A stretch of 44,585 nt of DNA from a virus (taxonomy: Duplodnaviria; Caudoviricetes), in the IMG/VR virus record IMGVR_UViG_3300012971_000011, positions 1 through 44,585 of that record; one strand, written 5' to 3'. A model generated the notes under the pieces. That model was given only the letters and a program-made list of their open reading frames with translations, searched no databases and was not told the origin of the DNA. Each line of letters begins with the position of its first letter. Within the stretch, counting starts at the first letter, position 1. This document shows positions 124-43,401 of this stretch, piece after piece. A program made the translations under genes and the position numbers.

Positions 124-2862
124 GCTCGTCCCAGACCGCACGACGCAGCGGATGTCATAGGTGTAGGTGCCCGCAGGCGGGTTATCGACGAAGACCGCCC
201 ACGGGTAGGGCATGACAACCGTGCCGCCGCAGCGTGCCGCGTACTGCCGGACTTGGTTAGTGTTGCGGTAGAGCCCAAGGAGAATTTGCGCGTTGCCTGA
301 CGAGCCCAGTTGGATGTAGGCGAGATTCATGGGGGCGAAGATGAGGACGAGACCGCCGCGCGTCGTGATAGCGGGGAATGTCGTGATAGCTCCACTCCAC
401 ACATCATAGGATGAGAAGTTGAACGTCGTATTGCTGGTTGTCGAGGTGGACGTGCCAACCGCCGCGCCGCCGTTCAGCTTGCCGGGGATGTTCAGGTTGC
501 CCGCGCTGTCGATGTTGAACATCCGCACCCACACTGGCGCGCCCGCCGTCGCGGGGGCACGGTAGGCGGCGAACTGGTCGTTGCTATCGACTTGGACTGA
601 CCAGCCGGGTCGCGTGCTGTCATCGAGGAGCGGATTTCCTGGTCCGGCGGCGACGTTCGACCGCACCAGGAAGCCGTAGGGGCTGAGCAGGCCGAAATGC
701 GCCTTCGCGGGCTGCGCCGCTCCCGAGAGCACGACGCCGTCCTGCGCCGGCGTCAACGCCGGGAGGGAGAGCGTGCCCGTCGCTCCATCGAGGACGAGCA
801 GGTTCGAGAAGGCGGGAGCGCCCGAGGTGGCGGGGGCGCGGACGATGCGGCAGGCGTCGATGGCACCGCCCCAGAGCTGGAATGTCCAGCACGGCTCCGC
901 CGTCGAGTCCTGGAGCGCCGAGGCTCCGGCATAGGAGTAGTTGAAGGCGAGCGAGGCGAAGGCGTTCGTGTCGGCGGCCTTGGCGCCGAGAAGGCGTCCC
1001 CTGGTGGTCCGCGCCGGCCAGACGAAGGCGTCGCCGACGGAGCCGGCATTGATGACCTTGAAGGAGTCGGTTGGGATGATGACGTTCCCCGCCTGGCGGG
1101 TGACCCAGGCGGAGCGGCTGGTCGTGAACCAGCGGACGTTGTTGGTGGAGGAGTTTGCTGCAATGATAGATACGCACTCGCCGGGAGCGAGGGTGATGAA
1201 GGAGAGCGAGGCGTCGATCGTATCGGTGCCGCTCGCCTGGATGGTGACCTGGTTCGCGGGGGTCGAGTCGGTGCGGGTGAAGCGAAAGACGGTGCCCTGG
1301 GCGACGGCGGACCAGAGGGGAAGCGTCAGGGTGACCGCGTTTAACGTCGCGGAGACCTGGTTCTCGTACTGGGTGGTGGAGAGGGTGCCGGTCGCGGCGG
1401 TCCAGGTGACGGGGGCGGTCCAGAAGGGACCGGAGGGGAGGTTGTCGAGCTGCGTCCAGGTGCTACCGACGCGACCCATGAAGTGGCCGGCGGTGTACTG
1501 GATGGCGCCCGCGAGGGGCGACGCGCGGACGTCGGCGCCGACCTGGAGGGAGTTCAGGAGGGTGGCGCCCTGGGCGTCGAGCGTGAGCTGGGTCGTCGCG
1601 GCGGGGGCGAACGCGATCGTCGTCCCGGCGGCGGAGGCGAGGGCGAGCGCGCCGTTGGTGCCGGTGATCGTCGGGGAGGAGGGGCCGGTGCCCTGGAGCC
1701 AGGAAAGGGCCTTCGCGTTGTCGAGCGAGAGGACGCCGGTCTGGTCCAAGCGGAGGAGCTGGGTCCCGGCGTCGGCGGTGTTCCACTCGAAGCCCTGCTG
1801 GCCGGCGTAGAACATCAGGAGGGCGTCATTGCCGATCAGGCCGGTGCGCTGGGTGATCGTCGATTGGGAGTTCGGGAAGACGATGCCGTCGCCGCCGCCG
1901 GAGAGCTGGATCCCGTAGTTGGTCCCTTTGGGAGTAAGATAGTTGTTGGCGACGTTCTCCAGCCAGAGGGAGTCGCCGGCGCCGCCCTGGGAGGGGAGCC
2001 AGGAGGCGTCGTAGTCGGCGTTCGAGTTCTTGGTGAGGACCTGGGTCGCGAGTCCGCCGGCGGGAATGCCGGGGAGCGGGAACTCGACCCAGCCGCCGTT
2101 CTTCCGCGCCTGGAGGACGCCGCCGACCGACTGGATGGTGCCGTTCAGCGGGGAGGCGTTCGTCGAGGCGCCGAGGGTGATGGCGCCGTTCACCTGGAGC
2201 ATCTCCGGCGTGGGGATCGTCGAGCCGCCGATCTCCAGGCCCTTCGTGTTCGGGAAGACCGTGTAGCCCGAGCCGTCGATCAGCAGGCGGAACTGGGGGG
2301 CGAGCTGGCCCGTGGGAGCAGTGGAGATCGACCAGGTGACTCCGCCCGTGCTGCCCGTCCAGGACTCCGAGGCGGTACAGAGTTCGGTGAAGGCTGGCTG
2401 GCTGCTGAGGGTCTGGATCAAGTCGTGGCGATAGACCGGCATCCCCGGGTTGATCGTCTCCATCGGGAGCACGGACTTCAGCCAGGAGGGATCGCCGGTC
2501 GGCGGGGCGGCGATCGTGAGCGCGCCGGTCTCGACCGGGTAGGCGCCGGCGGAGGGCTGGAGGTTCGCGCCGGTGTCGATCCAGAGCTGGCCGACGGTGG
2601 AGGCGGGAGCCCAGACCGGCGTCCCGTTCGCGTTGAGCATCAGGAGGTCGGAGGGGCTGCCGAAGGGTGTGGGGAGGAGCCGATCGACGATCTCCGGCGC
2701 GAGCATGTCGAGCGTAATCATGCCCGGGCCAATGATGTCACCGATCAGCTTAGCTACTACTCTATAAAGGCGGTCGTCGATGATGGCCCAGTTCCGGTTC
2801 TCGGCCTGGTTCGGGCCGAGGTCGAGATGGAGGTAGGGGGTCTGGTTCGGGGCGGCGCTCAT
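67..2862 (-). CDS. Long tail fibre / receptor-binding protein (about 931 aa)
   Basis: Start taken at MSAAPNQTPYLHL, overlapping the upstream stop. The protein is G/S/T/A-rich with internal repeats (DSTAEPCW..RAPATSGAP / DSTRPGW..RAPATAGAP). It has an N-terminal TPxLxL..NxNW motif and a C-terminal ITTRGG beta domain. Confidence 0.8.
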   Translation of the reverse strand: MSAAPNQTPYLHLDLGPNQAENRNWAIIDDRLYRVVAKLIGDIIGPGMITLDMLAPEIVDRLLPTPFGSPSDLLMLNANGTPVWAPASTVGQLWIDTGANLQPSAGAYPVETGALTIAAPPTGDPSWLKSVLPMETINPGMPVYRHDLIQTLSSQPAFTELCTASESWTGSTGGVTWSISTAPTGQLAPQFRLLIDGSGYTVFPNTKGLEIGGSTIPTPEMLQVNGAITLGASTNASPLNGTIQSVGGVLQARKNGGWVEFPLPGIPAGGLATQVLTKNSNADYDASWLPSQGGAGDSLWLENVANNYLTPKGTNYGIQLSGGGDGIVFPNSQSTITQRTGLIGNDALLMFYAGQQGFEWNTADAGTQLLRLDQTGVLSLDNAKALSWLQGTGPSSPTITGTNGALALASAAGTTIAFAPAATTQLTLDAQGATLLNSLQVGADVRASPLAGAIQYTAGHFMGRVGSTWTQLDNLPSGPFWTAPVTWTAATGTLSTTQYENQVSATLNAVTLTLPLWSAVAQGTVFRFTRTDSTPANQVTIQASGTDTIDASLSFITLAPGECVSIIAANSSTNNVRWFTTSRSAWVTRQAGNVIIPTDSFKVINAGSVGDAFVWPARTTRGRLLGAKAADTNAFASLAFNYSYAGASALQDSTAEPCWTFQLWGGAIDACRIVRAPATSGAPAFSNLLVLDGATGTLSLPALTPAQDGVVLSGAAQPAKAHFGLLSPYGFLVRSNVAAGPGNPLLDDSTRPGWSVQVDSNDQFAAYRAPATAGAPVWVRMFNIDSAGNLNIPGKLNGGAAVGTSTSTTSNTTFNFSSYDVWSGAITTFPAITTRGGLVLIFAPMNLAYIQLGSSGNAQILLGLYRNTNQVRQYAARCGGTVVMPYPWAVFVDNPPAGTYTYDIRCVVRSGTSASVQAASDVSNMNIFEVG

Positions 2863-3554
2863 GCGAGTTCGTAGCCCCAGGCGGCGCCGCCGTTCGAGAC
2901 GACGGAGACGGCGGTCGAGGAGGTCGCGACCATCAGATGGTAGGTGACGGTCTGCGCGGCGCGCTGGTCGAACGCGAGGAGGGTCGGCATCGGGACCGTC
3001 ACGATGGTGCCACCCGTCCCGCCGACGAGGGCGACGGCGGGCTGCTGCACCCAGACGTCGGGGGGATTCAAGGTCGCGACGCCCCAGCCGAGGCCCGCCC
3101 AGACGCTGGTGCCGGCTGGCTGGGCGGTGAACTGGATCTGGGCACCGAGGGAGGCGGCGAGGAGAATCGGGCCACCTCGGGTGGTGATCGCGGGGAGGGC
3201 GAGGACCTCCTGCCAGGTGGTGCCGGGGTTGTAGGTGTGGGAGCCGGAGAGGATCTGCTGGGCGAGGGTGCGGGTCTTCAAGGCCGAGACGGTGAGCGAG
3301 CCGGCAGGGAGGGTGACCGGGCCGTTCGGGACGACGAGCCACCCCTCGACGTCGAGCCCCTGGACGTGCGTCGCGCCGGCGACGGAGAGATCGCCCGGGA
3401 TCGGGAGCGGGGACGGGAGCTGGAGGGGTGAGCCGGGAAGGAAGGCGCGTCCGATCGTGTCGTCCAGCTTCCACCAGTTCTGGTTGGTCCCGTCGTCGGC
3501 GTTGAAGCGGAGCCGCAGCGTGGGGGTCCGCTGATCGAGCGTGGGATCGGGCAT
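2859..3554 (-). CDS. Short fibre/spike-like virion protein, paralogue of the long fibre termini
   Basis: Begins MPDPTLDQRTPTLRLRFNADDGTNQNWWKLDD; shares PAITTRGG with the C-terminus of 67-2862. Confidence 0.65.
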   Translation of the reverse strand: MPDPTLDQRTPTLRLRFNADDGTNQNWWKLDDTIGRAFLPGSPLQLPSPLPIPGDLSVAGATHVQGLDVEGWLVVPNGPVTLPAGSLTVSALKTRTLAQQILSGSHTYNPGTTWQEVLALPAITTRGGPILLAASLGAQIQFTAQPAGTSVWAGLGWGVATLNPPDVWVQQPAVALVGGTGGTIVTVPMPTLLAFDQRAAQTVTYHLMVATSSTAVSVVSNGGAAWGYELA

Positions 3555-3709
3555 CACGGGCTCGCGGCAGGCGCGTTCAGCGGGATGTGGCAGACCTCGC
3601 ACTCGGCTTGCTCGCCGGGATCCATCTCGTACTTGGCGGGGCAGCGCGGGCAGTAGACGAGGAGTTTCACGGGGTCGCCCGAGCCCGGGTAGACCCAGTG
3701 GCTAGCCAT
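3554..3709 (-). CDS. Small zinc-ribbon protein (51 aa)
   Basis: MASHWVYPG..CPRC..CEVC; overlaps both neighbours. Confidence 0.55.
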   Translation of the reverse strand: MASHWVYPGSGDPVKLLVYCPRCPAKYEMDPGEQAECEVCHIPLNAPAASP

Positions 3710-4049
3710 CGAGGAGCCCCACGGGGACGGTGATCGCGAGGCCGGCGAGGGTGGTGATCGCGCGCCGGATGTTGTGGTTCTGCGCCTGGTCCGGGGTGAA
3801 GCGGACGGTCTTCGCGGCGGAGACGGTGCCCCCGCCGAGGAGCGTGTCGAAGACGATCCAGTTCTGGTTCATCACCTCCTGGCTCGTGTAGGTGAGGCCG
3901 ACGACCGGGGTGAGCGGCGGGGTGCCGGGTGTCCAGGTGTGGGGGGTGATCGGGAGGGACGCGGCCTTCGCCTGGAGTGCCAGGTCGAGGCGCGTCCAGT
4001 TCGCGTTGGTCGCCTCGTCGTCGGCGGACATGAAATTGGCGCTCGGCAT
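3702..4049 (-). CDS. Virion protein made of three copies of the fibre N-terminal NxN(W/I) motif
   Basis: Contains TNANWTRLD, MNQNWIVFD and QNHNIRRAI; GGAGG RBS upstream. Confidence 0.55.
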   Translation of the reverse strand: MPSANFMSADDEATNANWTRLDLALQAKAASLPITPHTWTPGTPPLTPVVGLTYTSQEVMNQNWIVFDTLLGGGTVSAAKTVRFTPDQAQNHNIRRAITTLAGLAITVPVGLLDG

Positions 4050-4060
4050 GGGGGCCTCCT

Positions 4061-4930
4061 CTACCAGAGTCGATCGGCGCTAGCCAGTTTGGAAAGTTGC
4101 TGGACGCGATCCTGGCCGGCGGCGTCGAGATTGTCGAAGCCGTAGCGGAGCGCATCGACCAGGTCCTTCATCGGGTGCGTCTTCACGGGGCGGTAGGGAG
4201 GAAGGGCGGAGAGGTGGAAGCCGCCGGAGAGGGCTTCGATCAGGTTCGGGCACTTCGGGGAGATCAAGATGGCGGGCTCGTGCCCGAGACGCGGGACCAG
4301 GACCGAGCGGAGGAAGCGCTCGCGGAGCGCGGCGTAGGAGACCTCCGAGCCGGGGCGGTTGGTGTGCATGTGGATGCCCGCGCGCTCCAGGAGTTCGGCG
4401 ATCGTTCCGAGCGAGCCGACGGAGTTGGCTTCGGGGTCGCCGGCGTCGAAGAAGTCGGAGCGCGTCACCAGATCGAGGGAGATCGCCTTCACCATCGGGA
4501 GGAGCTGATCCAGGGGGGAGTTGAAGGGACAGAGTTCGCGGTGGACGACCACCTGGGAGTAGGGGGTGAGCTGGCAGAAGAGGACGACCGGGGAGACGGC
4601 GCCGAAGTCCCAGAAGCGCAGCAGTCTACTGTCTCTCTGGATAGGGAGGTCTCGGACGTGCTTGTTGGCGTCGAACTCGGGGACGACCGGCTCGCCCTCG
4701 GGGGTGGTCCAGGAGATCTCGTACTCGCGCTGCCAGGCACGCAGCGAGAGGCCTTCGGAGGTCTTCTGCTTCCAGGCCTCCGCCCGCTTCGTCGGATCGG
4801 CGGTGTAGTGTAAACGCAGAACGAAGAAGCCGTTGCGCGGGTTGCGCCACTCGGTGACGCCCCGGCGCGGGGTACCCGCATGCTCGGGGGGGCGGTCGAT
4901 CAGGCGCTCGGTCTGCTGGCTCTCACTCAC
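4061..4930 (-). CDS. terL: Terminase large subunit, C-terminal half (ATPase lid segment + RNase H-like nuclease)
   Basis: LHYTADP..WQREYEISW lid/linker, WDFG (first catalytic Asp), GDPEA and KDLVDALRY nuclease motifs. Own GAGGAG RBS and GTG start (alternative start 4948). Confidence 0.85.
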   Translation of the reverse strand: MSESQQTERLIDRPPEHAGTPRRGVTEWRNPRNGFFVLRLHYTADPTKRAEAWKQKTSEGLSLRAWQREYEISWTTPEGEPVVPEFDANKHVRDLPIQRDSRLLRFWDFGAVSPVVLFCQLTPYSQVVVHRELCPFNSPLDQLLPMVKAISLDLVTRSDFFDAGDPEANSVGSLGTIAELLERAGIHMHTNRPGSEVSYAALRERFLRSVLVPRLGHEPAILISPKCPNLIEALSGGFHLSALPPYRPVKTHPMKDLVDALRYGFDNLDAAGQDRVQQLSKLASADRLW

Positions 4931-5204
4931 TCGGGGGCTCCTCGTCACCGAGGGGAGGGGGCGTCGGCTGCCAGGGCGGGGGTGCTTCGGCGGCGCGCTC
5001 TCCCAGGCGGTAGCCAGCGAGGAAGAACTGGAGGGCCTGGGCGTCGGGGATGGTGAGGCGGTCGCCGAAGTCGGAGAGGATCTCGGCGCCCTGGCCGGAG
5101 AGCGCGGGCAAGACGAGGGCCGGGACCTGGAGCTGCCAGAACTCGGCGCGCACCTGGTCGGCGAAGCTGGGCTGGGGGGGGATGCCGGCGAGGGGGATCT
5201 GCAT
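4923..5204 (-). CDS. Hypothetical protein (93 aa)
   Basis: ORF packed between neighbours in the - strand operon. Confidence 0.55.
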   Translation of the reverse strand: MQIPLAGIPPQPSFADQVRAEFWQLQVPALVLPALSGQGAEILSDFGDRLTIPDAQALQFFLAGYRLGERAAEAPPPWQPTPPPLGDEEPPSE

Positions 5205-5205
5205 G

Positions 5206-5319
5206 TCAGGGCTCCCTATCGTGACGACGATTCAGCCAGGACCAGATGATGTCGAGTCCGACCAGCGCGAAGACGATCAGGACGAGGGCGCCGACGACGC
5301 CGAAGATCGTCTGCCACAC
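5206..5319 (-). CDS. Small single-TM membrane protein (37 aa), possible lysis accessory
   Basis: MWQTIFGVVGALVLIVFALVGLDIIWSWLNRRHDREP; GTG start abuts the upstream stop. Confidence 0.5.
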   Translation of the reverse strand: MWQTIFGVVGALVLIVFALVGLDIIWSWLNRRHDREP

Positions 5320-5523
5320 CTACTTCCGCCGCATCTTGGCGAAGGTCTTCGCCAGGTTCGCTTGGCGCTTCGTCTGCGTCGAGGCACCGGAGCCTTTCTT
5401 CGTCACCTTGCTCGCGTAGGCGGCGGTGCTCATGCCAGCCGCCTGGGCTTTCTTCTTGAACGCTCCAGGGTGCTTGATGACGCTGCCTCGGGGTTTCCCG
5501 AAGAGTGTCCCTTTCTTTGCCAT
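5320..5523 (-). CDS. Small Lys/Ala-rich basic protein (67 aa)
   Basis: MAKKGTLFG..IKHPGAFKKKA..RQANLAKTFAKMRRK. Confidence 0.7.
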   Translation of the reverse strand: MAKKGTLFGKPRGSVIKHPGAFKKKAQAAGMSTAAYASKVTKKGSGASTQTKRQANLAKTFAKMRRK

Positions 5524-6104
5524 TAGAATGGAGCCCCTTGCCCATGGGTGAGGGCGTTGGTGAAGCGGACGGCGTAGTTCGCGATCGTCTGGGCCTGATC
5601 CAGGCCGTTCACGATCTTCCTGGCATTGTAGTAGTCGGTCTGGGAGTCGTTGATGTACTTCGGGAGGCCGACGCCGGTGAAGTCGCCGTCCTGCATGCCG
5701 CCGAAGATGATCTCGGTCGCCACCTGGAGGTCGAGGGCGGTGTCGGCGACCTGGACGAGCTGGCCATTCAACTTGAGTTTCTTATCTTGCTTGTCGTAGT
5801 TGGTGTACCAGGTGAGCTGGACGAAGCCTCTCCCGTAGTAGACCTGGTTGTAGGGACCGTCCGGTTGTCCGTAGGGTTTGCCCTTGCCCTTCCCGTACTC
5901 GCTGATTGGTTGCATGGTGAGGGCGGTTTCATGGTAGGTGGTTGCCAGGAGATAGGCTAACCATCTATCATCCCATGCGAGCTGCTCGGCCCAGTCGAGG
6001 AGCGCGGTCTGGCCATCGACCTGACTCTGGTTCATGGAGCCGGAGAAGAGGGAGCCCCGGACGGAGTCGAAGTAGTATTTGCGGTTGATCGCGCCTGCGC
6101 TCAT
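5523..6104 (-). CDS. Endolysin, glycoside hydrolase family 19 (lysozyme-like fold)
   Basis: YLLATTYHET, YYGRGFVQLTWYTNY and ARKIVNG motifs typical of phage GH19 lysins. Confidence 0.88.
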   Translation of the reverse strand: MSAGAINRKYYFDSVRGSLFSGSMNQSQVDGQTALLDWAEQLAWDDRWLAYLLATTYHETALTMQPISEYGKGKGKPYGQPDGPYNQVYYGRGFVQLTWYTNYDKQDKKLKLNGQLVQVADTALDLQVATEIIFGGMQDGDFTGVGLPKYINDSQTDYYNARKIVNGLDQAQTIANYAVRFTNALTHGQGAPF

Positions 6105-6499
6105 CAGTGCTTCTCCCCTGTCGCGCGCTTGATCGTCTCCAGCTCGTCCCGGCGGACCTTGACGAGGAGGGAGGCGTCGTCCTCGATCTTCCGCAGCAGG
6201 GCGAGCTGCGCGTTCATGTTCTCGGCGTGCTGGGCCATGTACTGGGACTGGGCCTTCAGCTCCTGGGTCTGCGCTTTCAGCTCACCGACGAACATCTCGA
6301 CGGCGGCGGCGTTCTGGCCCATGCGGGTGGTGATGGCGTTCATATTGTCCTGGAATCTAGTAAGTAAGAACCACAACAATACACCAGCCACCACGACGGG
6401 GAAGCCGACCTGGACGATGACGCGGCTGGCGACATCGACCCAGCCTTGGCCGGGGATGATGACCTGGGTTTGCGGACCCCCGCCAGGGCCGTTCGCCAT
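6104..6499 (-). CDS. Putative holin (one TM segment + coiled coil)
   Basis: VGFPVVVAGVLLWFLL TM segment followed by a heptad-rich tail; directly upstream of the endolysin. Confidence 0.6.
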   Translation of the reverse strand: MANGPGGGPQTQVIIPGQGWVDVASRVIVQVGFPVVVAGVLLWFLLTRFQDNMNAITTRMGQNAAAVEMFVGELKAQTQELKAQSQYMAQHAENMNAQLALLRKIEDDASLLVKVRRDELETIKRATGEKH

Positions 6500-6505
6500 G
6501 GGATG

Positions 6506-6652
6506 TCAATGGATGGTGGCAACGTGCCCGAGGAGTTCGGAGAGGATCCAGAGCCCGAGCCCGAGCGCGGTCAGGTTGGCGCGCGGGATGGGAGCCTGGG
6601 CCGCTGCCAGGATGAAGCAGATGAAGGCGAGGACCAGGAGGACGAGGCTCAT
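6506..6652 (-). CDS. Small two-TM membrane protein (48 aa), possible holin/antiholin
   Basis: MSLVLLVLAFICFILAAAQAPIPRANLTALGLGLWILSELLGHVATIH. Confidence 0.6.
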   Translation of the reverse strand: MSLVLLVLAFICFILAAAQAPIPRANLTALGLGLWILSELLGHVATIH

Positions 6653-6942
6653 GGCGCGTAGACGCGCTCGCCCATGGCGGGGTTGCGGCGGAGGTCCGAG
6701 AGCATGAAGTAGAGCTGGTCGATGACGACGTCGCCCGGGACCGACCAGGCGGCGGAGATGGCGGAGATGAACTGGTTCAGCTCGTCGAAGAGGTTGGCGC
6801 CGCGCTGGGAGCTGCCCCGGGAGTCGAAGGAGAGATTCTGGGTGCCGGTCTGGCCCCGGATCTCGACGCCCGAGCCGCCGACGTAGCGTCCGATGATCTG
6901 CGGGGTGGTGACGGTCCCGGTCACTGTGACTTGTGCTGCCAT
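6649..6942 (-). CDS. Hypothetical protein (97 aa)
   Basis: Strong AGGAGG RBS; typical codon usage. Confidence 0.65.
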   Translation of the reverse strand: MAAQVTVTGTVTTPQIIGRYVGGSGVEIRGQTGTQNLSFDSRGSSQRGANLFDELNQFISAISAAWSVPGDVVIDQLYFMLSDLRRNPAMGERVYAP

Positions 6943-6968
6943 GGTTACCTCCTATCTTACTAGCTCGA

Positions 6969-7139
6969 CTAGCTCGATGCGGGCCAGTTGCTGCCGTTGA
7001 CGTAGCCGTAGTCGGTCGTCCACCCGCCCCCCGGGATGGAGACGGCGGGAGGCGGAGCGACCGGCAGGGCGGCGGGCGTGGGCTCCTCGGTCGGGTGATC
7101 CGAGAGGAAGCGGGCGTCGATGGCGGAGCGCTGGGACAT
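6969..7139 (-). CDS. Hypothetical Pro-rich protein (56 aa)
   Basis: MSQRSAIDARFLSDHPTEEP..; fills the gap in the operon; weak RBS. Confidence 0.4.
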   Translation of the reverse strand: MSQRSAIDARFLSDHPTEEPTPAALPVAPPPAVSIPGGGWTTDYGYVNGSNWPASS

Positions 7140-7156
7140 GGGGAGGGTGGCGACGG

Positions 7157-7456
7157 CTAGCTCCCAGCCGGCGGGTCGTCGCCAGAGGATTTTCCCGTGG
7201 CGGGATCCACGGCGTCTCCCTCCCCGGTGGAGGCGGGGGGCGTCTCCCGGAGGTAGGGGTTGTCGGTGATGAGGCCCGAGCGGGGGGTCTCGTCGTCCGG
7301 GGCGAGCTGGGCTTCGGCCTGGGCGAGGAGATCGAGATACTCGGCTTCCTCGGCGGAGGCCTGGGCGGCGGCTTGGCGACAGGACCGGACGGCGTCGGCG
7401 AGCGCCGGGACCCGCTGGGCGAGCGGCATCTGGCCGATGTTCTGGAGGAGCGGCAT
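7157..7456 (-). CDS. Hypothetical protein (99 aa)
   Basis: AGGAGG RBS; helical N-terminus. Confidence 0.65.
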   Translation of the reverse strand: MPLLQNIGQMPLAQRVPALADAVRSCRQAAAQASAEEAEYLDLLAQAEAQLAPDDETPRSGLITDNPYLRETPPASTGEGDAVDPATGKSSGDDPPAGS

Positions 7457-7481
7457 GGGAGCCTCCTAGAAAGTTACGGCG

Positions 7482-7754
7482 TTAGGGCTGGTAGAGCCGG
7501 GAGACGGCGGGGGTCTCGCGATTCATCATCGCGGTGACGACGATCATCAGGAGGGCCTTGGCGGGGTTGAAGCCGATCCCGTAGCCGTCCGCCATCGCCT
7601 GGACGAAGGCGACGAGTTCGGGGAGATCGCCGGACTTGAGCAGTTCGGGCTGGATGCGATCGACATGGGGGACGTTCGGGTCCGTCTTGTCCATGTTGGT
7701 CGCGTCGAAGGAGATCGGGGTCCAGGTCCCGGACCACACGGCGGTTGCACTCAT
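7482..7754 (-). CDS. Hypothetical protein (90 aa)
   Basis: AAGGAGG RBS; typical codon usage. Confidence 0.65.
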   Translation of the reverse strand: MSATAVWSGTWTPISFDATNMDKTDPNVPHVDRIQPELLKSGDLPELVAFVQAMADGYGIGFNPAKALLMIVVTAMMNRETPAVSRLYQP

Positions 7755-7778
7755 AGATAGCCTCCTTACTTCTTAGGG

Positions 7779-8516
7779 CTAGTAGATTCCACGGTTCATG
7801 AACGGATTGACGTAGCGCCCCCCACCGAGGAGCTGGAGGAGGGAGAGCGGCGGGTTGTTCTGGTTCGCCGGCTGCGACGGGGGTGCGGGAAGCTGGCTCC
7901 CTCCTCCGCCGCCCTGGGGATTTAAGTAGGGGGCGAGCTGCTGGGTGAGGCGGCGCTCGACCAACTGGCGGACGGTGTTGCCGAAGCCCTGGGTGGTGTC
8001 GAGGCCGTAGGTCTTCATGAGGTATTGCTGGAAGGGGGAAGCCTGGGCCGCGTTGGCGACCGCGTCGGTTGCTGCACCCGAGCCGGAGGACATGGGGGCG
8101 GCGTTGGCGTAGGGCGTCCCACCCGGGGGACCGCCCGCAGCGGTGGGAGAGCCGACACCCGGGACGGAGGTGATCCCGGTGAGGGACGGGGTGCCGGAGG
8201 TGGGGGCGTAGGGACCGACGCCGAGGCCGGGACCGTTCGGCTGGAAAAGGCCCGCGCCGGCGGAGGAGGCACCCGAGCTGACGGAGGCGGGGATGGCGCC
8301 AGCGCCTCCCGAGGCGGCGCCAGCGGCGGCGGGAGCGGCGCCGGAGGAGGCGCCCATGCCGGCCCCCATGCCGAGCCCGTGCATCATCGAGCCGAGCGCC
8401 CCGCCCATCGAGCTGAGGGCGCCAGCGCCCATCGAGCCGAGGGCGGAGCCAGCGGCGCCGGCAGCACCCGCCGCACCCGAGGCGGCGGCGGCGAGGAGGG
8501 GAGCGAGAAAGGCCAT
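7779..8516 (-). CDS. Gly/Ala-rich protein resembling DNA-ejection (pilot) proteins
   Basis: Hydrophobic MAFLAPLLAAAASG start and G/A/S/M low-complexity helix, as in podoviral ejection proteins. Confidence 0.5.
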   Translation of the reverse strand: MAFLAPLLAAAASGAAGAAGAAGSALGSMGAGALSSMGGALGSMMHGLGMGAGMGASSGAAPAAAGAASGGAGAIPASVSSGASSAGAGLFQPNGPGLGVGPYAPTSGTPSLTGITSVPGVGSPTAAGGPPGGTPYANAAPMSSGSGAATDAVANAAQASPFQQYLMKTYGLDTTQGFGNTVRQLVERRLTQQLAPYLNPQGGGGGSQLPAPPSQPANQNNPPLSLLQLLGGGRYVNPFMNRGIY

Positions 8517-8527
8517 TTTCTACCTCT

Positions 8528-9019
8528 TTAGGTCTGTCCCCGGACGGGCCAGGAGAGGAAGGTGACCTCGCCCGCCGCGTTGGTCAGATCGAAGTCGTGG
8601 CCGAAGGGGTTGTAGCGGACCTCGTAGTTCTGGAGGCCCGAGGCCTGGGGGAACTCCAGGTAGGACGTGGTCACCTGGACGAGGTCGCCGCCGAGCGTGT
8701 AGGCGCAGTTGGTGTTCGAGCGTTGCTGGCCGAGCCCGTCGTAGACGCGGATCCGTCCGTTGCCGAGTCCGGAGCCGGCGGCGAGGGCGCCCCGGATCGC
8801 GATCAGGAAGAGGACGACGCCCCCCTGGACGACGGCGATCTGGGAGAGGTCGAAGATCTTGGTCTCGACGCCGGTGGGGCAGAGGACCTGGGAGACGAGG
8901 GCGCTGCGTTGCATCAGGGGAGCGCTCGACCCCGCTTGCGCCTGGAGCGCCACGATGGCGGCATTCAAGCGCGAGAAGTTGATGTTCAGGCCAGCATCGG
9001 CGGTGGTCTCAAGGAACAT
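8528..9019 (-). CDS. Short fibre/spike-like paralogue (163 aa)
   Basis: Start MFLETTADAGLNINFSRL after GGAGG; IAVVQGGVVLFL aligns with the ITTRGGxxL domain. Confidence 0.55.
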   Translation of the reverse strand: MFLETTADAGLNINFSRLNAAIVALQAQAGSSAPLMQRSALVSQVLCPTGVETKIFDLSQIAVVQGGVVLFLIAIRGALAAGSGLGNGRIRVYDGLGQQRSNTNCAYTLGGDLVQVTTSYLEFPQASGLQNYEVRYNPFGHDFDLTNAAGEVTFLSWPVRGQT

Positions 9020-9032
9020 GGGGACCTCCGGC

Positions 9033-9180
9033 GGGGGAAGGAGGTGCCTCCCACGTCCACTCCCGTCGCTCCCTTGGGATGGACGACCCGAGGAACGTGC
9101 GATCGTGAAGAGGCGGGAGCCCGGAGACCCTCTCCGGGATGTGGGAGGCACCGTCCCCCAGGCCACCCAGACGTGGGTGG
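9033..9180. other. Structured intergenic element (nested inverted repeats), candidate ncRNA
   Basis: GGTGCCTCCCAC (9043-9054) pairs with GTGGGAGGCACC (9141-9152); inner stems and a CCACCCA/TGGGTGG hairpin. Confidence 0.5.
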
Positions 9181-9195
9181 GACACGGGTGGGTGG

Positions 9196-9255
9196 TCAGT
9201 CGGAGGCATTGTCAGTGGTCTTCTTCTTGGCTTTCTTTTTCTTGACCTTGGCCAT
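9196..9255 (-). CDS. Lys-rich micro-peptide MAKVKKKKAKKKTTDNASD
   Basis: ATG a few nt after the TerL-N stop with a GAGAGGGA RBS. Confidence 0.4.
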   Translation of the reverse strand: MAKVKKKKAKKKTTDNASD

Positions 9256-9263
9256 GGTCCCTC

Positions 9264-10052
9264 TCAGAGCGCGTCAAAGACTGCCTGCTTGAAGAAGCCG
9301 GGGTTGGCGGAGCTGACCCCGGTGAACCTGCCCCCTCCTTCCAGGGTGGGGAGGGAGGCGGAATAGGTGTCGTGGGCGAGTTCCCAGTAGGCCATCTCGT
9401 CGGCGAAGATGGCGGTCAAGGTGTACTGGCGGAGTTGATCCGCCCCCTGCGCGACGCCAATGATCTCACTCCCGATGGTGGGGTATTTGAGGCGGGCGAA
9501 GTTGTACTGGAAGGGGAGCGGCTCGATGTCGGCGGGGAGATGCTCCTCGATGAACTTGACCCGCCGAACCAGCTCCGCAGCACCCTCGCTGTCATTGAGA
9601 CCTTGCTTGCGGGAGACAAAGGCAATGGTCGATCCGGGGAAAAACCTGGCAAGCCAGCTATGGAGAGCCACCATCGTCCATGAAACCAGAACACGTCGGC
9701 TCTTGGGGACGAGGAGGCGCTTTTCATGGAGCCACCTGTTGGTGACGTGCGCGACGTAGTTCTTGCAGTGGAACTCGCACGCGCACTGGACGTCGGTCTG
9801 ATCGGGGAAGCGCCGGACCTGCTGGGAGGCCTGGTCGAGCGTCCAGCAGCACTCGATCAGGAACTTGTAGGGATCGGTGCGGTAGCGCTCGGAGCTGGAC
9901 TTCTGGAGTGCCCGGAGGCGAGCGCGGGCACGGTAGGCCATCTCGTCCGCATCGGGGAGATCGAGGTGAAAGGGATCCCCTCCCGCATCGCCGTCTGCCA
10001 CCCCAACGCTCGGCTCACCTGGGATGGGAGGCTGCACCCGAGACCTGGCCAT
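9264..10052 (-). CDS. terL: Terminase large subunit, N-terminal ATPase half
   Basis: Terminase-type Walker A region VPKSRRVLVSW, Walker B AIFADE and coupling motif GVSSANPG; ends FFKQAVFDAL-stop with no nuclease domain. Confidence 0.85.
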   Translation of the reverse strand: MARSRVQPPIPGEPSVGVADGDAGGDPFHLDLPDADEMAYRARARLRALQKSSSERYRTDPYKFLIECCWTLDQASQQVRRFPDQTDVQCACEFHCKNYVAHVTNRWLHEKRLLVPKSRRVLVSWTMVALHSWLARFFPGSTIAFVSRKQGLNDSEGAAELVRRVKFIEEHLPADIEPLPFQYNFARLKYPTIGSEIIGVAQGADQLRQYTLTAIFADEMAYWELAHDTYSASLPTLEGGGRFTGVSSANPGFFKQAVFDAL

Positions 10053-10083
10053 CCTAGGGAGCGCGTTTACACGCAAAGGGGGG

Positions 10084-10441
10084 TGCCAAGCAAGTATGGC
10101 AGGAAGGCGGGACGGGAGCCCTGACGTAAGCGGTCCCTCACAGGCCTCTCAATCGAGAGCCCCCGTCCCGCGACTCTGGTAGCACGAAGCTGCGACGGAG
10201 CGAAGCGAGGGAGCAGGGGGTGGGAGGGGTCGGCCAGCCAGGAGGGGAAGGAGGGACTAGCCCCTAAGCCTCCGACCGACCGACCCACCCCGGGGTGTGG
10301 AATGGTCTCCTTTGCCTTGGGAAGCAAGGGAGCCCTCCGGCTGTGTGGGCTGGAGGGGTGCGGTGCCACCAGTGATGGCCCCCCCTCTCTACGGGGGAGA
10401 GTGGGGAGCTGTCAAGCCCGGGAAAAAGTCAGCTCTTGGCA
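10084..10441. other. Structured intergenic element between TerS and TerL-N, candidate ncRNA or ssDNA signal
   Basis: Several hairpins (GCGGGACGGG/CCCGTCCCGC, GGGGTGGG/CCCACCCC, CCCTCCGGCT/GGCTGGAGGG), bracketed by TGCCAAG/CTTGGCA. Confidence 0.45.
10386..10415 (-). promoter_or_regulatory. Putative sigma70-type promoter upstream of TerL-N
   Basis: TTGACA-18 nt-TAGAGA on the - strand. Confidence 0.4.
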
Positions 10442-10450
10442 TGCGTGCTT

Positions 10451-11134
10451 CTACTCATCGGAGGAGGGAAAGACGGTCGGCTCGGCGAGGGGACCGGTGA
10501 CGGGGGTGACGTCGAGGACCGCCTCGCTCGGCTTGGGGACCCGGGGAGCAGGCAGGAAGGCTCTCAAGACTTCTCTGAATCTTGCGGGCCAGACCCGGTG
10601 CTCCGCCAGGTCCTCAAGTTCCTTGGCCGTCATCTGCTCGATCACGCGGTCTGGGGTGGTGATCTCGATCCGCTTCGGAGGCTCGACCCCAGCCAACTGC
10701 AGCACGGTCTTGTTGGCGTGCAAGCGAGTGCGCGGATCTCGCTCGGTCTCCGACTGGCGGATGATCCGCCGCATGGCCTCGGGCGCCGCCGCCTTCGCGA
10801 GCGTGACGGGCTCGTACTCCCCCTGCATGGTGATGCGATGGAGGAGCCCCTTCTCGATCTCGGCCTGCACCTGGAGGAACCTGGGTCGTCGGATGCGCTC
10901 CCTGACCTCGACGATCGGCCTTCCCACATCTTCCGCGATGGCCTGATCCGAGAGCCCGGCGAAGCGCAGATGCAGCAGCCGATAATCGACGGGCTCCAGG
11001 ACCTCCGCGACGGGTCCCGCTTTGCCGAAGAGGACATGGGCTCGCTTCGCCGACATCCCCGGCCCGGTCTCCGCCGCCATCGGCCCCAAGTACGGCTCCC
11101 CCGGACGTGCCGCCAACCAGAGCGGTGCTCTCAT
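10451..11134 (-). CDS. Putative terminase small subunit
   Basis: HTH-like GLSDQAIAEDVGRP followed by a helical oligomerisation-like region; immediately upstream of TerL-N. Confidence 0.6.
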   Translation of the reverse strand: MRAPLWLAARPGEPYLGPMAAETGPGMSAKRAHVLFGKAGPVAEVLEPVDYRLLHLRFAGLSDQAIAEDVGRPIVEVRERIRRPRFLQVQAEIEKGLLHRITMQGEYEPVTLAKAAAPEAMRRIIRQSETERDPRTRLHANKTVLQLAGVEPPKRIEITTPDRVIEQMTAKELEDLAEHRVWPARFREVLRAFLPAPRVPKPSEAVLDVTPVTGPLAEPTVFPSSDE

Positions 11135-11715: not shown

Positions 11716-11938
11716 CTGGACTGTATGAGAGCTGGTTTGGGGGAGGGACTCAGCGCGGCAGAGGAGATACCCGCGCCGAGGACGGCGCGGGGGCGCGGAG
11801 CCAGCAAGCTATCATGTTAGACGTTCACTGTATGCTTTCTAGCGGGCTAGCTGCTGCTAGAAATCTTGCGGGCTGGCTGGGGATTGATCGCATTCTGAGG
11901 GAGGGTGATTCCCGCTAGCTTGCTAGGGCCAGCTAGAC

Positions 11939-12934: not shown

Positions 12935-13043
12935 GGGGAAGGTGGAACGCGCGCGAAGCACAAACCGTGCCATCGGCAACCTGGCCAGCAGCATTTCTAG
13001 CTGGTTTTGCTCTCTAGCTTGCGATTTCGGTCATGTTTTCTTG

Positions 13044-13092
13044 CTAGCTGGCTAAGAATTGCTTAATTTCTAGCTGGCTGGCTAAGAATTGC
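13044..13092. repeat. Direct repeat CTAGCTGG(CTGG)CTAAGAATTGC x2
   Basis: Copies start at 13044 and 13070. Confidence 0.75.
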
Positions 13093-13147
13093 AAGATTTC
13101 TAGCGCCTGCGCTCGCGCGGCGGCCCGCTCGGCGCCTGGGCTCTCCC

Positions 13148-39599: not shown

Positions 39600-39635
39600 G
39601 CTTTCTCCTTTCTTGCTAGCCGTCTATGCTCTGGT

Positions 39636-41124: not shown

Positions 41125-43401
41125 CTATTGCATTGTTCCCCTAGGCAACCTTCTCTGAAGATCGCCTTCATTGGTGGTCTGGGGCGGACGCCCGGGATTC
41201 TCGGGCATCCCCCCACCCGGCCCACCTGGAGGGGAGCCACCGGGGGCGGCGCTCGCGTTCGGTGGACCGGGCGGGGAGCCCGCAGCCCCTCCTCCCATCA
41301 GTTGGGCCATGGCAGCCTGCTGAGCCTGTTCTTGCTGGATCTGCTGCTTCATGGCGAAGGAGGCGGCGTGACGCTGGATGTGCTGGATCACTTCCTGCTT
41401 GGTCGGCATGGGGAGGGCCTGGCCCTCGGGGGACTGGAGGAACTGGTTGTGGATCTGGGCGTGCTTCATGTCGTCGTCGATCGGGGAGACCGTCACCTCG
41501 TCGCCGCGTCCGACCTGGAAGAGCTGGTTCTCGATGACGGCGTCCACCGCCCGGGTGGGGGTGATGTCCTTCACGATCATCTCGGCCTCGCGGTCCCCGA
41601 AGCCGGTCGCCCAGACCTCGCGCAGGAGATACTTCCAGTCCACGCGGGCGTTGTCCTGGGCGAGGAACTGCGGCGGGACGCGGGCCAGGATCTGGATGAA
41701 GTTGAGCATCTGCTGGACGCGCACGTTCTGGTTGAAGGAGAAGGTCGAGCCGAGCCACTCGAAGAGGTAGCCTCCCACGAGTGTATCTCTAGTTACCTGA
41801 GTCTCTAGAACGACCGCGCCGTCGGCGCCATCGACGCGCAGCGCGAGGTCGCGGTCGAGGCACTGCTGGAGGAGCGAGAACATCCACTCCAGCATGTCGT
41901 TCATGACGCCCTGTTCGAGGTTCTCGACGACGTCGCGCACCTGGAGGAGGGCCTCGCCGGAGACGATCGACATCCCGGTCGCGGTCTCGACCGCTCGGCC
42001 ACGCGCACGACCGGAGGTCTGCAGGCCGGCGCCGCCGAAGGGCGCCACGTTCGAGACGTCGTTCATCATGGCGATCAGGAAGTTGACCACCTGGATCCCC
42101 GCCATGGCGGAGTCCTTCGGGGGCTCGATGAAGTTGATCGAGTCCCTCGGGCTCCGGACCAGCCAGCGCGCGGCGGGGGCCAAGCGGATCGAGTCCGGGA
42201 ACTGGACGGCGTTCGCGTCCATCGCGACGATCGGATTCAGGGCGAAGACCAGGCCGTCGCCGGTCTGGTTCATGGTATCATTCATGAAGTATTGGAAGTA
42301 GTCGAGGAGGAACATGACGCCGTAGCCCCAGAACTCGTTCTGCATCTCGCAGAACTTGGCAGCGAGATAGGGTGGCTCCTGCTTCCAGTAGGGACACTGG
42401 CGAGCCTGGACGAGGCACTCGTCGCCGACGATCCAGAGCTGCCACCACTGCGGGATGTCCGGGGGCGGGTAGCCGTCGGCTTCGGTGCCGTCCGCGCCGG
42501 AGGCGTCGATGGTGCCGTACCAGTAGGCCTTGGTGAAATCCATCGGACGCTTCGGGTCCTCGCGCGGTTTCTCCGACTTCGAGCGCAGCCCCTTCGTCAG
42601 GAGGCGGATCTGCTCGGCCTGGAACTTGTCGGAGTCGCGCGAGGACACCCCGGTGCGGAGTTTCTTCACCTCGGCCCAGTTCTCCACCTGGGTCCCCAGC
42701 TCCGGGCGGTCCTGGTCGATCGGGGTGTCGGACATCCGCTCCAGGGTGTCCCAGTTCACCATCATGTCCTCGAACACCAGCTCCGCGTTACGGACATATT
42801 GACAGGTATATGGGTAGACGTAGAAGAGGAAGGGATCGACGACGCGGAAGGTGGGACCGAGGTAGCGGGTGACGGTCTTCGTGCCCTCGACGATCTGGGA
42901 GACGCCGGTGGTGGGATCGGCTTCGGCGAGGAGGGAGGGGACCTCCTGCTCGTCGAGATTCCAGCCCATCTCGGCGATCCCGGTGCCGTAGATGCACAGC
43001 GTGCGGAGCAGGCCGGGGAAGGTGCCAGTGATCCGCATCTGCTGGCGCAGGAGTTTCATCATCAGTTCGTGGACGACGGTGCCGCGCTCCTGGTTCGCGG
43101 TCGAGTCGGGGGTGTTCTTGAACCACTTCCCCGAGTCCGGGAAGAGATCGGCGCGCAACTTCTGGACCCAGTTCTCGACGATCCGGTGAGCAATAGGAAG
43201 ATACATCCGGAGTCTACCATGATAGCTCTGTTCAGTGCCCCGGAGCGTCCAGAGATTGTAGTAGCGGAGCCACTGCGGGCGGATGACCTGGTTCTTCTCC
43301 TGGCGGACCTGGATGAACTGCGGGGCGAGGGTCTTCTTCCACCAGTTCCGCACCGACGCCTTCTTGGCGAGGTTCGGGGAGAGGACGAGTTGGTCGCTCA
43401 T
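41125..43401 (-). CDS. Portal protein (podoviral type)
   Basis: 758 aa; IYGTGI, VDPFLFYVYP, EFWGYG and ETATG motifs; Q/P/G-rich tail; position upstream of scaffold and MCP. Confidence 0.85.
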   Translation of the reverse strand: MSDQLVLSPNLAKKASVRNWWKKTLAPQFIQVRQEKNQVIRPQWLRYYNLWTLRGTEQSYHGRLRMYLPIAHRIVENWVQKLRADLFPDSGKWFKNTPDSTANQERGTVVHELMMKLLRQQMRITGTFPGLLRTLCIYGTGIAEMGWNLDEQEVPSLLAEADPTTGVSQIVEGTKTVTRYLGPTFRVVDPFLFYVYPYTCQYVRNAELVFEDMMVNWDTLERMSDTPIDQDRPELGTQVENWAEVKKLRTGVSSRDSDKFQAEQIRLLTKGLRSKSEKPREDPKRPMDFTKAYWYGTIDASGADGTEADGYPPPDIPQWWQLWIVGDECLVQARQCPYWKQEPPYLAAKFCEMQNEFWGYGVMFLLDYFQYFMNDTMNQTGDGLVFALNPIVAMDANAVQFPDSIRLAPAARWLVRSPRDSINFIEPPKDSAMAGIQVVNFLIAMMNDVSNVAPFGGAGLQTSGRARGRAVETATGMSIVSGEALLQVRDVVENLEQGVMNDMLEWMFSLLQQCLDRDLALRVDGADGAVVLETQVTRDTLVGGYLFEWLGSTFSFNQNVRVQQMLNFIQILARVPPQFLAQDNARVDWKYLLREVWATGFGDREAEMIVKDITPTRAVDAVIENQLFQVGRGDEVTVSPIDDDMKHAQIHNQFLQSPEGQALPMPTKQEVIQHIQRHAASFAMKQQIQQEQAQQAAMAQLMGGGAAGSPPGPPNASAAPGGSPPGGPGGGMPENPGRPPQTTNEGDLQRRLPRGTMQ

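What the first reader, a model, noticed from the sequence alone, without database searches (positions are those of the whole stretch)
4061..10052. Terminase large subunit split into two genes 4.3 kb apart, with lysis and virion genes between
Seen: 9264-10052 has Walker A/B and coupling motifs and stops at FFKQAVFDAL. 4061-4930 starts with its own RBS and encodes the lid/linker (LHYTADP..WQREYE) plus an intact nuclease (WDFG..DLVDALRY). About 13 co-oriented ORFs intervene, so this is not a frameshift or sequencing error. No intein termini or homing-endonuclease-bearing intron are evident. Established: phage TerL is normally one ATPase-nuclease polypeptide, and herpesvirus UL15 is split into two exons around other genes. 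Inference: a three-component packaging motor (TerS + ATPase + lid-nuclease) assembled in trans, with the break inside the ATPase domain; long-range splicing is less likely.
Basis: partly seen in the sequence, partly recalled or inferred. Interest (0 to 1): 0.85.

Follow-up and report, generated by a model that had tools for sequence, protein, structure and literature searches.

The report
Phage terminase encoded as two genes
This uncultured soil phage, like a large clade of its relatives, encodes its DNA-packaging enzyme (large terminase) as two separate conserved genes cut inside the ATPase engine, with lysis and other cargo genes between them, so the motor is most likely assembled from two protein chains instead of the usual one.

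Summary
Confirmed. The window is a complete circular 44.5-kb phage genome. Its only large terminase is encoded in two minus-strand genes. 9264-10052 is the ATPase core (deviant Walker A, Walker B, C-motif). 4061-4930 carries a strand hairpin, lid helices and an intact RNase H-like nuclease. Both AlphaFold models match solved large terminases.

The 4.3 kb between them holds 11 ORFs of 48 aa or more, all co-oriented, including an endolysin and holin/spanin-like genes.

It is not a misassembly. Independent soil assemblies bridge both junctions, and every related contig with enough DNA shows the same split. No intron or intein was found. The second gene has its own Shine-Dalgarno site and GTG start.

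The family runs through a series of layouts, all cut at one loop:
- one-chain proteins (about 45% identical);
- adjacent, translationally coupled halves;
- halves 1.3-7.4 kb apart around variable cargo;
- halves on opposite strands, 5-9 kb apart.

The opposite-strand layout excludes cis read-through or cis splicing. Both halves are under purifying selection and diverge in step.

Best reading, inferred: a two-chain terminase in which the nuclease chain supplies the last ATPase strand and the lid.

I found no printed description in eight literature searches. Earlier notes of this scan report two-gene terminases on other DNA.

The parts
10451..11134 (-). Candidate small terminase subunit (TerS), directly upstream of the ATPase half
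   Evidence: PHROG 2538 'terminase small subunit', E 8.3e-4 (weak). Relatives of it (45-74% identical) lie upstream of the N-half in 10 of the 13 non-identical related loci (L004-L016). A TerS-like ORF also precedes the N-half in L032.
9264..10052 (-). TerL-N: ATPase core of the large terminase (262 aa). It ends ...PGFFKQAVFDAL*, 11 residues after the C-motif SSANP.
   Evidence: All 8 related loci tested end FFKQAVFDxL*. 111 of 120 short relatives stop 1-18 aa (median 2) after this helix.
4949..9263 (-). Cargo slot between the halves: 11 co-oriented ORFs of 48 aa or more. Content and length vary among relatives.
   Evidence: The gap is 3.6-7.4 kb in close relatives. Only some ORFs are shared (7482-7754, 7157-7456, 6649-6942, 4923-5204 and the endolysin). 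The DNA diverges immediately after the N-half stop. No terminator-like site lies on the minus strand between 11945 and 3500.
8528..9019 (-). Cargo ORF (163 aa from Met50), beta-sandwich-like, function unknown. Found only in the identical contig L003.
   Evidence: ESM Atlas: phage hypothetical clusters; weak structural likeness to tail-tip and carbohydrate-binding sandwiches..
6104..6499 (-). Membrane-anchored coiled-coil protein, likely a holin or spanin-like lysis component
   Evidence: Weak PHROG hits: Rz-like spanin E 0.005, holin E 0.0096. The hydrophobic segment followed by a long helix is read from the sequence.
5523..6104 (-). Endolysin
   Evidence: PHROG 181 endolysin E 3.2e-17; PHROG 29753 E 2.8e-21. 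Conserved in relatives.
4923..5204 (-). Conserved 93-aa ORF translationally coupled to TerL-C (its stop overlaps the TerL-C start). Function unknown.
   Evidence: No family or Atlas hit.
4061..4930 (-). TerL-C (289 aa): N-terminal strand hairpin and lid-like helices of the ATPase domain, a linker, then the RNase H-like nuclease domain
41125..43401 (-). Portal protein, the docking site of the terminase. On the circular map it lies downstream of TerL-C, after the tail-fibre-like genes.
   Evidence: PHROG 1216 portal E 5e-9 and PHROG 332 E 2e-19. Pfam SU10_portal E 3.9e-7. 123-nt terminal repeat.

Best explanation
The phage's large terminase is encoded by two separate genes, and the two proteins most likely assemble non-covalently into one working ATPase-nuclease subunit of the packaging motor.

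Shown:
- Gene 1 (9264-10052) makes the ATPase core up to the helix after the C-motif.
- Gene 2 (4061-4930), 4.3 kb downstream with its own start, makes a strand hairpin, lid-like helices, a linker and an intact nuclease.
- One-chain relatives carry the same two parts joined by a loop of about 22 residues.

Inferred:
- The hairpin of gene 2 would supply the last core strand of the ATPase sheet, the one next to the P-loop strand, together with the lid. ATP hydrolysis and DNA translocation would then need both chains in 1:1 complexes.
- These complexes would ring the portal, with the small terminase as third component.
- The loop where the chain is cut has become a slot that collects lysis and other accessory genes.
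For: (1) Both parts are terminase domains with conserved catalytic residues.

(2) The cut falls in a loop of one-chain orthologues. In P0229 (515 aa), the N-half aligns to residues 11-208 (47% identity) and the C-half to 231-470 (29%).

(3) The split is old and kept.
- 104 of 107 C-half relatives are stand-alone proteins of 247-335 aa.
- The 120 listed of 197 N-half relatives are 183-308 aa.
- The window lies in a purely split clade of 118 rows, support 91.

(4) Purifying selection acts on both halves: dN/dS 0.06-0.19 for the N-half (8 pairs) and 0.17-0.29 for the C-half (4 pairs). dS is near saturation, so the values are rough.

(5) The halves diverge in step across 31 genomes: Mantel r 0.91, 0 of 2000 permutations as high.

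(6) Re-joining in cis is excluded. Eight loci of a sister clade have the halves on opposite strands, 5.3-9.3 kb apart. No Rfam intron was found and no intein or endonuclease domain. The C-half has its own SD and GTG start, and its N-terminal extension is conserved as protein.

(7) Topology. The N-half model ends strand(245-255)-C-motif-helix(261-266). The C-half model begins with strands 31-35 and 42-46, then helices 52-75, ahead of the nuclease domain that starts at 85.

(8) No second terminase is present in a complete genome.
Against: - No direct evidence that the two proteins bind. No experiment exists for this uncultured phage.
- The assignment of C-half strands 31-46 to the missing core strand rests on sequence alignment with one-chain relatives and on recalled ASCE topology, not on a modelled complex.
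- Walker A is deviant (no GKT), so ATPase activity itself is inferred from conservation.
- Recalled, not checked here: separately expressed ATPase and nuclease domains of T4 gp17 did not restore packaging when mixed. A two-chain motor is therefore not trivially expected to work.
- dS values of about 1-2 make the dN/dS figures approximate.
Confidence: 0.8

Rival explanations
1. Functional uncoupling. The N chain alone forms the translocating ATPase ring, as in phi29-type motors that lack a nuclease. The C chain is a free-standing headful or cos nuclease that visits the motor only at initiation and termination, without forming a stable 1:1 subunit.
For: The halves can be moved far apart and onto opposite strands, so they may be under separate transcriptional control. 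The nuclease domain folds confidently on its own.
Against: The C chain always keeps about 60 residues of ATPase-domain sequence (hairpin plus lid helices), with invariant or near-invariant positions G30, W34, N36, N39, V43, H47 and Y48. This is hard to explain if it never completes the ATPase. The divergence of the halves is tightly correlated. In every one of the 32 loci where both halves were found there is exactly one of each.
Confidence: 0.12
2. The halves are re-joined after transcription or translation, by trans-splicing of RNA, by a split intein, or by herpesvirus-UL15-like exon joining, so that a normal one-chain terminase is made.
For: Introns and inteins do interrupt terminase genes elsewhere. 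Jug phage terL is cut by group I introns and spliced reads were seen (PMC12880540, passages read). Four of the 120 listed one-chain relatives of this family carry a LAGLIDADG_3 domain, which suggests an intein.
Against: No Rfam family above noise in 3500-10500 on either strand. No Hint, intein or endonuclease domain in either half or in the cargo. The N-half stops 11 residues after the C-motif, leaving no room for an N-intein of about 100 aa. The C-half has no conserved Asn followed by Cys/Ser/Thr: N39 is followed by G, A, S, K or R. The cargo is a set of ordinary genes whose content varies. Adjacent forms use overlapping stop/start codons typical of coupled genes.
Confidence: 0.03
3. Artefact or decay: a chimeric assembly, or a dead terminase whose function is supplied by a helper.
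For: The genome is a metagenome assembly. Neither half reaches any Pfam or NCBIfam threshold.
Against: Logan contigs from four soil runs tile 3900-10200. One 9478-nt contig covers 3900-9401 without a difference. In run X7, a variant strain from another study, separate contigs bridge 9264 and 4930. Of the 13 non-identical related IMG/VR loci of the first scan (L004-L016, 68-89% identity), the five in which a C-half was found show the same layout; the contig with identical sequence, L003, does too. Catalytic residues are invariant and dN/dS is well below 1. The genome is rated complete and holds portal, capsid, polymerase and lysis genes.
Confidence: 0.02

Closest known systems
Canonical one-chain large terminase (T4 gp17; D6E, P22, Sf6, P74-26 and HK97 TerL)
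   Same: Same two folds in the same order: an ASCE ATPase with Walker A/B and C-motif, a lid, then an RNase H-like nuclease with three acidic residues. It sits next to a small-terminase gene. Best structural matches: T4 gp17 ATPase (E 1.4e-11) and the D6E TerL nuclease (Z 20.1).
   Different: Two genes and two polypeptides. The cut lies before the last ATPase strand and the lid, corresponding to about residue 300 of gp17 by the alignment (gp17 numbering partly recalled). It is not at the domain linker. Walker A lacks GKT. No Pfam terminase model is matched.
Intron- or intein-interrupted terminase genes (Jug phages PMC12880540; Twort, PMC13729910; LAGLIDADG-bearing relatives)
   Same: The terminase reading frame is interrupted and appears as several ORFs.
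   Different: In those cases the pieces are re-joined by RNA or protein splicing, and the insert is a ribozyme, an intein or a homing endonuclease. Here there is no ribozyme or intein. The insert is 4.3 kb of ordinary genes, and sister clades have the halves on opposite strands.
   Same: An essential enzyme is encoded as two polypeptides that are expected to reassemble without splicing. The split is conserved within a lineage.
   Different: No endonuclease gene lies between the halves in this window. An HNH gene does sit beside the N-half in L032. The enzyme split here is the packaging motor. The gap holds up to 7.4 kb of changing cargo, and the same loop has been cut or re-joined several times.
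Herpesvirus UL15 terminase (two exons around other genes)
   Same: Terminase coding sequence lies in two blocks with unrelated genes between them. The nuclease fold matches pUL15 and HCMV UL89 at Z about 11.
   Different: UL15 exons are spliced by the host nuclear machinery into one mRNA and one protein (established knowledge). A bacterial virus has no such machinery, and the halves here have their own stop and start codons.

Membership tests
Large terminase (TerL) of tailed phages | N-terminal ASCE ATPase with Walker A, Walker B and C (coupling) motif | tested here: met
   The fold matches the T4 gp17 ATPase (E 1.4e-11). The family profile matches gp17 136-289 (E 1.9e-9). Invariant KSRR, DE and SSANP-type motifs. 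Walker A is a deviant form without GKT.
Large terminase (TerL) of tailed phages | C-terminal RNase H-like nuclease with conserved acidic triad | tested here: met
   Z 20.1 to the D6E TerL nuclease and 16.8 to the P22 nuclease domain. D114 and D171 invariant, D265 at least 90% conserved.
Large terminase (TerL) of tailed phages | Both activities on one polypeptide | tested here: not met
   Separate ORFs 4.3 kb apart, each with its own stop and start. The split is conserved in relatives.
Large terminase (TerL) of tailed phages | Match to a curated terminase model (Pfam Terminase_1/3/6, NCBIfam) | tested here: not met
   No Pfam or NCBIfam hit at E up to 0.01 for either half. The only hit is PHROG 5989, E 0.0067, for the N-half. 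Distant fused relatives of the C-half carry PF04466 and PF03237.
Group I/II intron-split gene | Ribozyme structure at the interruption | tested here: not met
   Rfam at permissive E-value over 3500-10500, both strands: a single chance-level snoRNA hit, E 0.8.
Split-intein (fractured) gene | N-intein after the first extein and C-intein ending in Asn followed by Cys/Ser/Thr before the second | tested here: not met
   No intein or Hint domain. The N-half ends 11 aa after the C-motif. There is no conserved nucleophile after N39 of the C-half.
Genes-in-pieces by homing-endonuclease insertion | Free-standing homing-endonuclease gene between the two pieces | tested here: not met
   None of the 11 cargo ORFs of 48 aa or more hits an endonuclease family. 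The mode of working, two chains that reassemble, is still the closest analogy.
Two-chain terminase heterodimer (the claim made here) | Physical association of the two chains | not testable with these tools
There is no experimental data for this uncultured phage.

The most novel reading that the evidence does not exclude
The catalytic core of a viral DNA-packaging ATPase is completed in trans. The nuclease chain donates the last core strand and the lid, so the motor can burn ATP only when a nuclease chain is docked. The loop where the chain is cut is a reusable fission point. It has been opened or closed at least three and perhaps seven times in one family. It serves as a protected landing pad for cargo such as the lysis cassette, and it may also blunt host sensors that recognise whole large terminases (Avs-type).
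Probability: 0.35. Interest if true: 0.8.

Novelty: new variant of a known kind. Interest (0 to 1): 0.68.

Why it matters
Large terminases are treated as obligate one-chain enzymes. Their covalent ATPase-nuclease link features in models of how packaging and cutting are coordinated.

This family is a natural experiment. A large, old phage lineage runs the motor from two genes cut inside the ATPase fold, and it offers one-chain, adjacent, far-apart and opposite-strand versions for direct comparison.

There are practical consequences as well.
- Annotation pipelines miss these genes: no Pfam or NCBIfam hit, and sources call them 'hypothetical protein'.
- TerL-based phylogenies and completeness estimates may therefore mishandle such phages.

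The gap between the halves behaves as a hotspot for accessory genes, here the lysis cassette. That bears on how phage genomes acquire cargo.

Tried and rejected
Heterodimer and structure searches:
- Heterodimer prediction never ran because the queue was full. No verdict exists either way.
- The VIA-align second look for the N-half model was never accepted. The end of the N-half on solved structures is therefore mapped only through HMMER alignments and secondary structure.
- Profile A3 against PDB sequences found nothing at E up to 1. Only fold comparison links the C-half to solved terminases.
- hhalign of the N-half family against fused protein P0105 gave nothing, and BLASTP of the N-half against the MW202637 terminase gave nothing. 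The informative fused relatives came from the 'longer' search.

Host and expression:
- The reference-genome scan with the C-half profile found one distant hit, a Melainabacteria MAG at 28% identity. It gives no host clue and no prophage relatives.
- No RNA holder was listed among the sequencing runs, so expression could not be examined.

Cargo:
- ESM Atlas gave nothing for the coupled ORF 4923-5204 and only a weak beta-sandwich lead for 8528-9019.
- The 19-aa Lys-rich ORF after the N-half stop looked like a possible coupled peptide. It is absent from 16 relatives, so I dropped it.

Literature. Eight searches found no description of a two-gene terminase with cargo. Papers opened as passages were about other things. 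From memory only, phage annotators sometimes label separate 'ATPase domain' and 'nuclease domain' terminase genes. I could not verify this.


Full report
WHAT THE WINDOW IS

The 44,585-base window is a whole virus record. Its first 123 bases repeat at its end. The source classes it as having direct terminal repeats and rates it 100% complete, so it is a circular assembly of about 44.46 kb.

Scans of 41 ORFs give this gene content:
- Plus strand: a family A DNA polymerase with an N-terminal UDG-like domain, a primase/helicase, an exonuclease and a Sak4-like protein.
- Minus strand: portal (41125-43401), major capsid protein (38283-39599), a virion-associated amidase and large unassigned structural-size genes.

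On the circular map the minus-strand order is:
1. small-terminase candidate (10451-11134);
2. ATPase half (9264-10052);
3. eleven cargo ORFs;
4. nuclease half (4061-4930);
5. tail-fibre-like genes (3702-4049, 2859-3602, 67-3474);
6. then, after the wrap, 43398-44132 and the portal.

No other terminase gene was found. The genome holds one match to the N-half.

N-half.
- It ends 11 residues after an SSANP motif.
- It is recognisable as a terminase ATPase by tblastn (39 phage records, all under 30% identity).
- phmmer against solved structures gives T4 gp17, E 0.0034. The family profile gives gp17 136-289, E 1.9e-9.
- By fold, the AF2 model (pLDDT 85.7) matches the gp17 ATPase at E 1.4e-11. The top 20 listed rows are all large terminases.
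- In 36 relatives, K125-S126-R127-R128, D226-E227 and P259 are invariant.
- The gp17 alignments place the family's hydrophobic residue where gp17 has Lys166, and a Lys one position before gp17 Ser161. This is a deviant P-loop. From memory, it is of the kind described for lambda-type terminases.

C-half.
- It starts at GTG 4930, 7 nt after GAGGAG, and overlaps the stop of the upstream ORF.
- It is 33% identical to residues 266-464 of an annotated 486-aa terminase.
- Its AF2 model (pLDDT 85.3) aligns over residues 85-277 with the nuclease domain of D6E TerL (Z 20.1, rmsd 2.5, 172 residues). P22 gives Z 16.8. SPP1, G20c and P74-26 give Z 14-15. T4 gp17 361-561 gives Z 13.9.
- D114 and D171 are invariant and D265 is nearly so.

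WHERE THE CUT LIES

The nuclease fold begins only at residue 85 of the 295-aa frame. Before it the model has strands 31-35 and 42-46 and helices 52-55, 57-63 and 69-75. This stretch is conserved as protein: G30, W34, N36, N39, V43, H47, Y48, D51 and P52.

The N-half model ends with strand 245-255, the C-motif and helix 261-266.

One-chain relatives exist. The 'longer' search found 160 proteins, and the best 120 are mostly 498-570 aa and 38-48% identical. In P0229 (515 aa):
- the N-half aligns to residues 11-208, ending ...FFKSLVFDQL;
- the C-half aligns from residue 231, starting PTDGVEVWINPKNKFLIFQLHYSANP.

The cut therefore falls in a loop of about 22 residues inside the ATPase domain, after the helix that follows the C-motif. 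By recalled ASCE topology (sheet order 5-1-4-3-2), the strand that follows is strand 5, which pairs with the P-loop strand. That assignment is an inference.

NOT AN ARTEFACT

A first scan of IMG/VR gave 14 loci with N-halves 68-100% identical. In all six where a C-half was found in the DNA held, it lies 3.6-7.4 kb downstream on the same strand.

Logan contigs of four soil runs tile 3900-10200:
- one 9478-nt contig covers 3900-9401 with no difference;
- in run X7, a variant strain from another study, contig pieces 8125-9711 and 4290-5012 bridge the N-half stop and the C-half start.

THE FAMILY-WIDE PICTURE

Protein searches:
- 104 of 107 relatives of the C-half are stand-alone proteins of 247-335 aa. 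Three distant ones are fused, 483-494 aa.
- The 120 listed of 197 N-half relatives are 183-308 aa.
- 111 of those 120 stop 1-18 residues (median 2) after the terminal helix. 117 of 120 'longer' relatives continue for 248-632 residues.

A profile scan of IMG/VR gave 172 relatives, of which 80 were kept. Together with the first scan, 82 loci were examined:

| Layout | Loci |
|---|---|
| Fused | 2 |
| Adjacent halves, 29-455 nt apart | 7 |
| Same strand, 1.3-7.4 kb apart | 17 |
| Opposite strands, 5.3-9.3 kb apart | 8 |
| No C-half in the DNA held (mostly short contigs) | 48 |

The six adjacent junctions read all show a separate start for the second gene. Four of them use overlapping stop and start codons (ATGA, TAATG, GTGA, or an ATG 16 nt before the stop, behind GGGAGG).

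Locus L032 was read in full.
- Plus strand: a TerS-like gene, the N-half and an HNH gene.
- Minus strand, transcribed divergently: holin-like genes, an endolysin, a collagen-like gene, the C-half and the portal.

The N-half thus travels with TerS, and the C-half travels with the lysis genes and the portal.

Trees of the ATPase part:
- A FastTree of 112 split and 112 fused rows needs 4 changes of state, at least 3 forced by well-supported branches. Rows without the motif and rows over 700 aa were dropped.
- With 32 locus-derived rows added, it needs 7 changes. The window sits in a purely split clade of 118 rows, support 91.
- One small clade mixes adjacent and cargo-bearing forms (L076 and L084 with L077, L078 and L080). 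This fits fission first and cargo later.
- These are FastTree trees with midpoint rooting. The direction of change (fission or re-fusion) is not settled.

SELECTION AND CO-INHERITANCE

- dN/dS against the window is 0.06-0.19 for eight N-halves and 0.17-0.29 for four C-halves. dS is about 0.8-2.2, so the values are rough.
- Pairwise identities of the two halves across 31 genomes correlate: Mantel r 0.91, 0 of 2000 permutations as high. This shows that they are inherited as a pair. It does not prove contact.

RE-JOINING MECHANISMS

- Rfam at permissive threshold finds no intron.
- No intein or homing-endonuclease domain is present.
- The termini lack intein hallmarks.
- The opposite-strand clade rules out read-through, bypassing and cis splicing for the family.
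- RNA trans-splicing cannot be formally excluded without RNA data. No RNA run was listed.

THE CARGO

- Endolysin, 5523-6104 (PHROG 181, E 3e-17).
- A membrane-anchored coiled-coil protein, 6104-6499 (weak spanin and holin hits).
- A 48-aa two-segment hydrophobic peptide, 6506-6652.
- Six ORFs of unknown function.
- A conserved 93-aa ORF coupled to the C-half.

Content varies between relatives, and the DNA diverges immediately after the N-half stop. No terminator-like site lies on the minus strand between 11945 and 3500. This fits one long late transcript, but the scan is only a consensus match.

MOST LIKELY MECHANISM (confidence 0.8)

Two polypeptides associate. The C chain would supply the last ATPase strand and the lid. 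The heterodimer would be the functional equivalent of one TerL subunit on the portal, with TerS as third component.

Shown: the domain content, the cut site, conservation, selection and the absence of re-joining signals.

Inferred: binding, strand complementation and stoichiometry.

The heterodimer prediction could not be run. From memory, mixing the separately made ATPase and nuclease domains of T4 gp17 does not restore packaging. That would make a natural two-chain motor cut at a different place informative.

COMPARISON WITH WHAT IS KNOWN

Eight full-text searches found split terminase genes only as intron or intein cases:
- Jug phages (PMC12880540, passages read);
- Twort (PMC13729910, passage read).

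The closest analogies in how it works are genes-in-pieces such as Aeh1 nrdA (recalled) and the two-part RNA polymerase of some pelagiphages (10.1101/672428, passage read). Supplementary files were not consulted.

Earlier notes of this scan report two-gene terminases with cargo slots in other, unrelated genomes. None shares sequence with this one. The scan has therefore met this kind of thing before on other DNA. I did not test those claims.

VERDICT

The finding is real. I class it as a new variant of a known kind: a terminase that works as genes-in-pieces, cut inside the ATPase core, with a recurrent fission loop that doubles as a cargo slot. Interest 0.68.

Noticed in passing
window 67-3474, 2859-3602, 3702-4049 (minus strand): Three consecutive tail-fibre-like genes downstream of the nuclease half share an N-terminal motif of the type D..(T)NQNW..LD. 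The first ~200 codons of the 1135-aa frame are Arg/Pro-rich and overlap the 247-aa ORF, so the real start is probably near Met205.
   Followed up: no
window 11832-11937, 13037-13096, 39609-39638: A family of six 30-nt direct repeats (TTTCTTGCTAGCTGGCTAAGAATTGC-like, 63-100% alike). Five lie in the lower-GC intergenic stretch between the divergent gene blocks and one lies before the capsid gene. They may be promoter or operator elements.
   Followed up: no
window 9194-9253 (minus strand): A 19-aa Lys-rich ORF with its own GAGGGA ribosome-binding site lies right after the ATPase-half stop. It is not present in 16 relatives.
   Followed up: yes
window 24535-27168 (plus strand): The family A DNA polymerase carries an N-terminal uracil-DNA-glycosylase-like domain and a 3'-5' exonuclease domain in one 877-aa protein.
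   Followed up: no
window 9264-10052, residues 86-98 of the 270-aa frame: A Cys-rich insert (C..C.C....C) sits in the N-terminal part of the ATPase half. It is present in many relatives and cleanly absent in others. It may be a small metal-binding knuckle.
   Followed up: no
L032 10530-11105 and 5341-5847: In the sister clade with opposite-strand halves, an HNH endonuclease gene follows the ATPase half, and a collagen-like Gly-X-Y repeat gene sits just before the nuclease half.
   Followed up: no
proteins P0237, P0242, P0257, P0341: Some one-chain relatives of this terminase family are about 840 aa and carry a LAGLIDADG_3 domain, which suggests an intein. The family is thus hit by selfish elements as well as by fission.
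   Followed up: no
window 7779-8516 (minus strand): A cargo ORF of 245 aa is almost entirely Gly/Ala/Ser/Pro low-complexity sequence with a hydrophobic N-terminus. It was found only in the identical contig L003.
   Followed up: no
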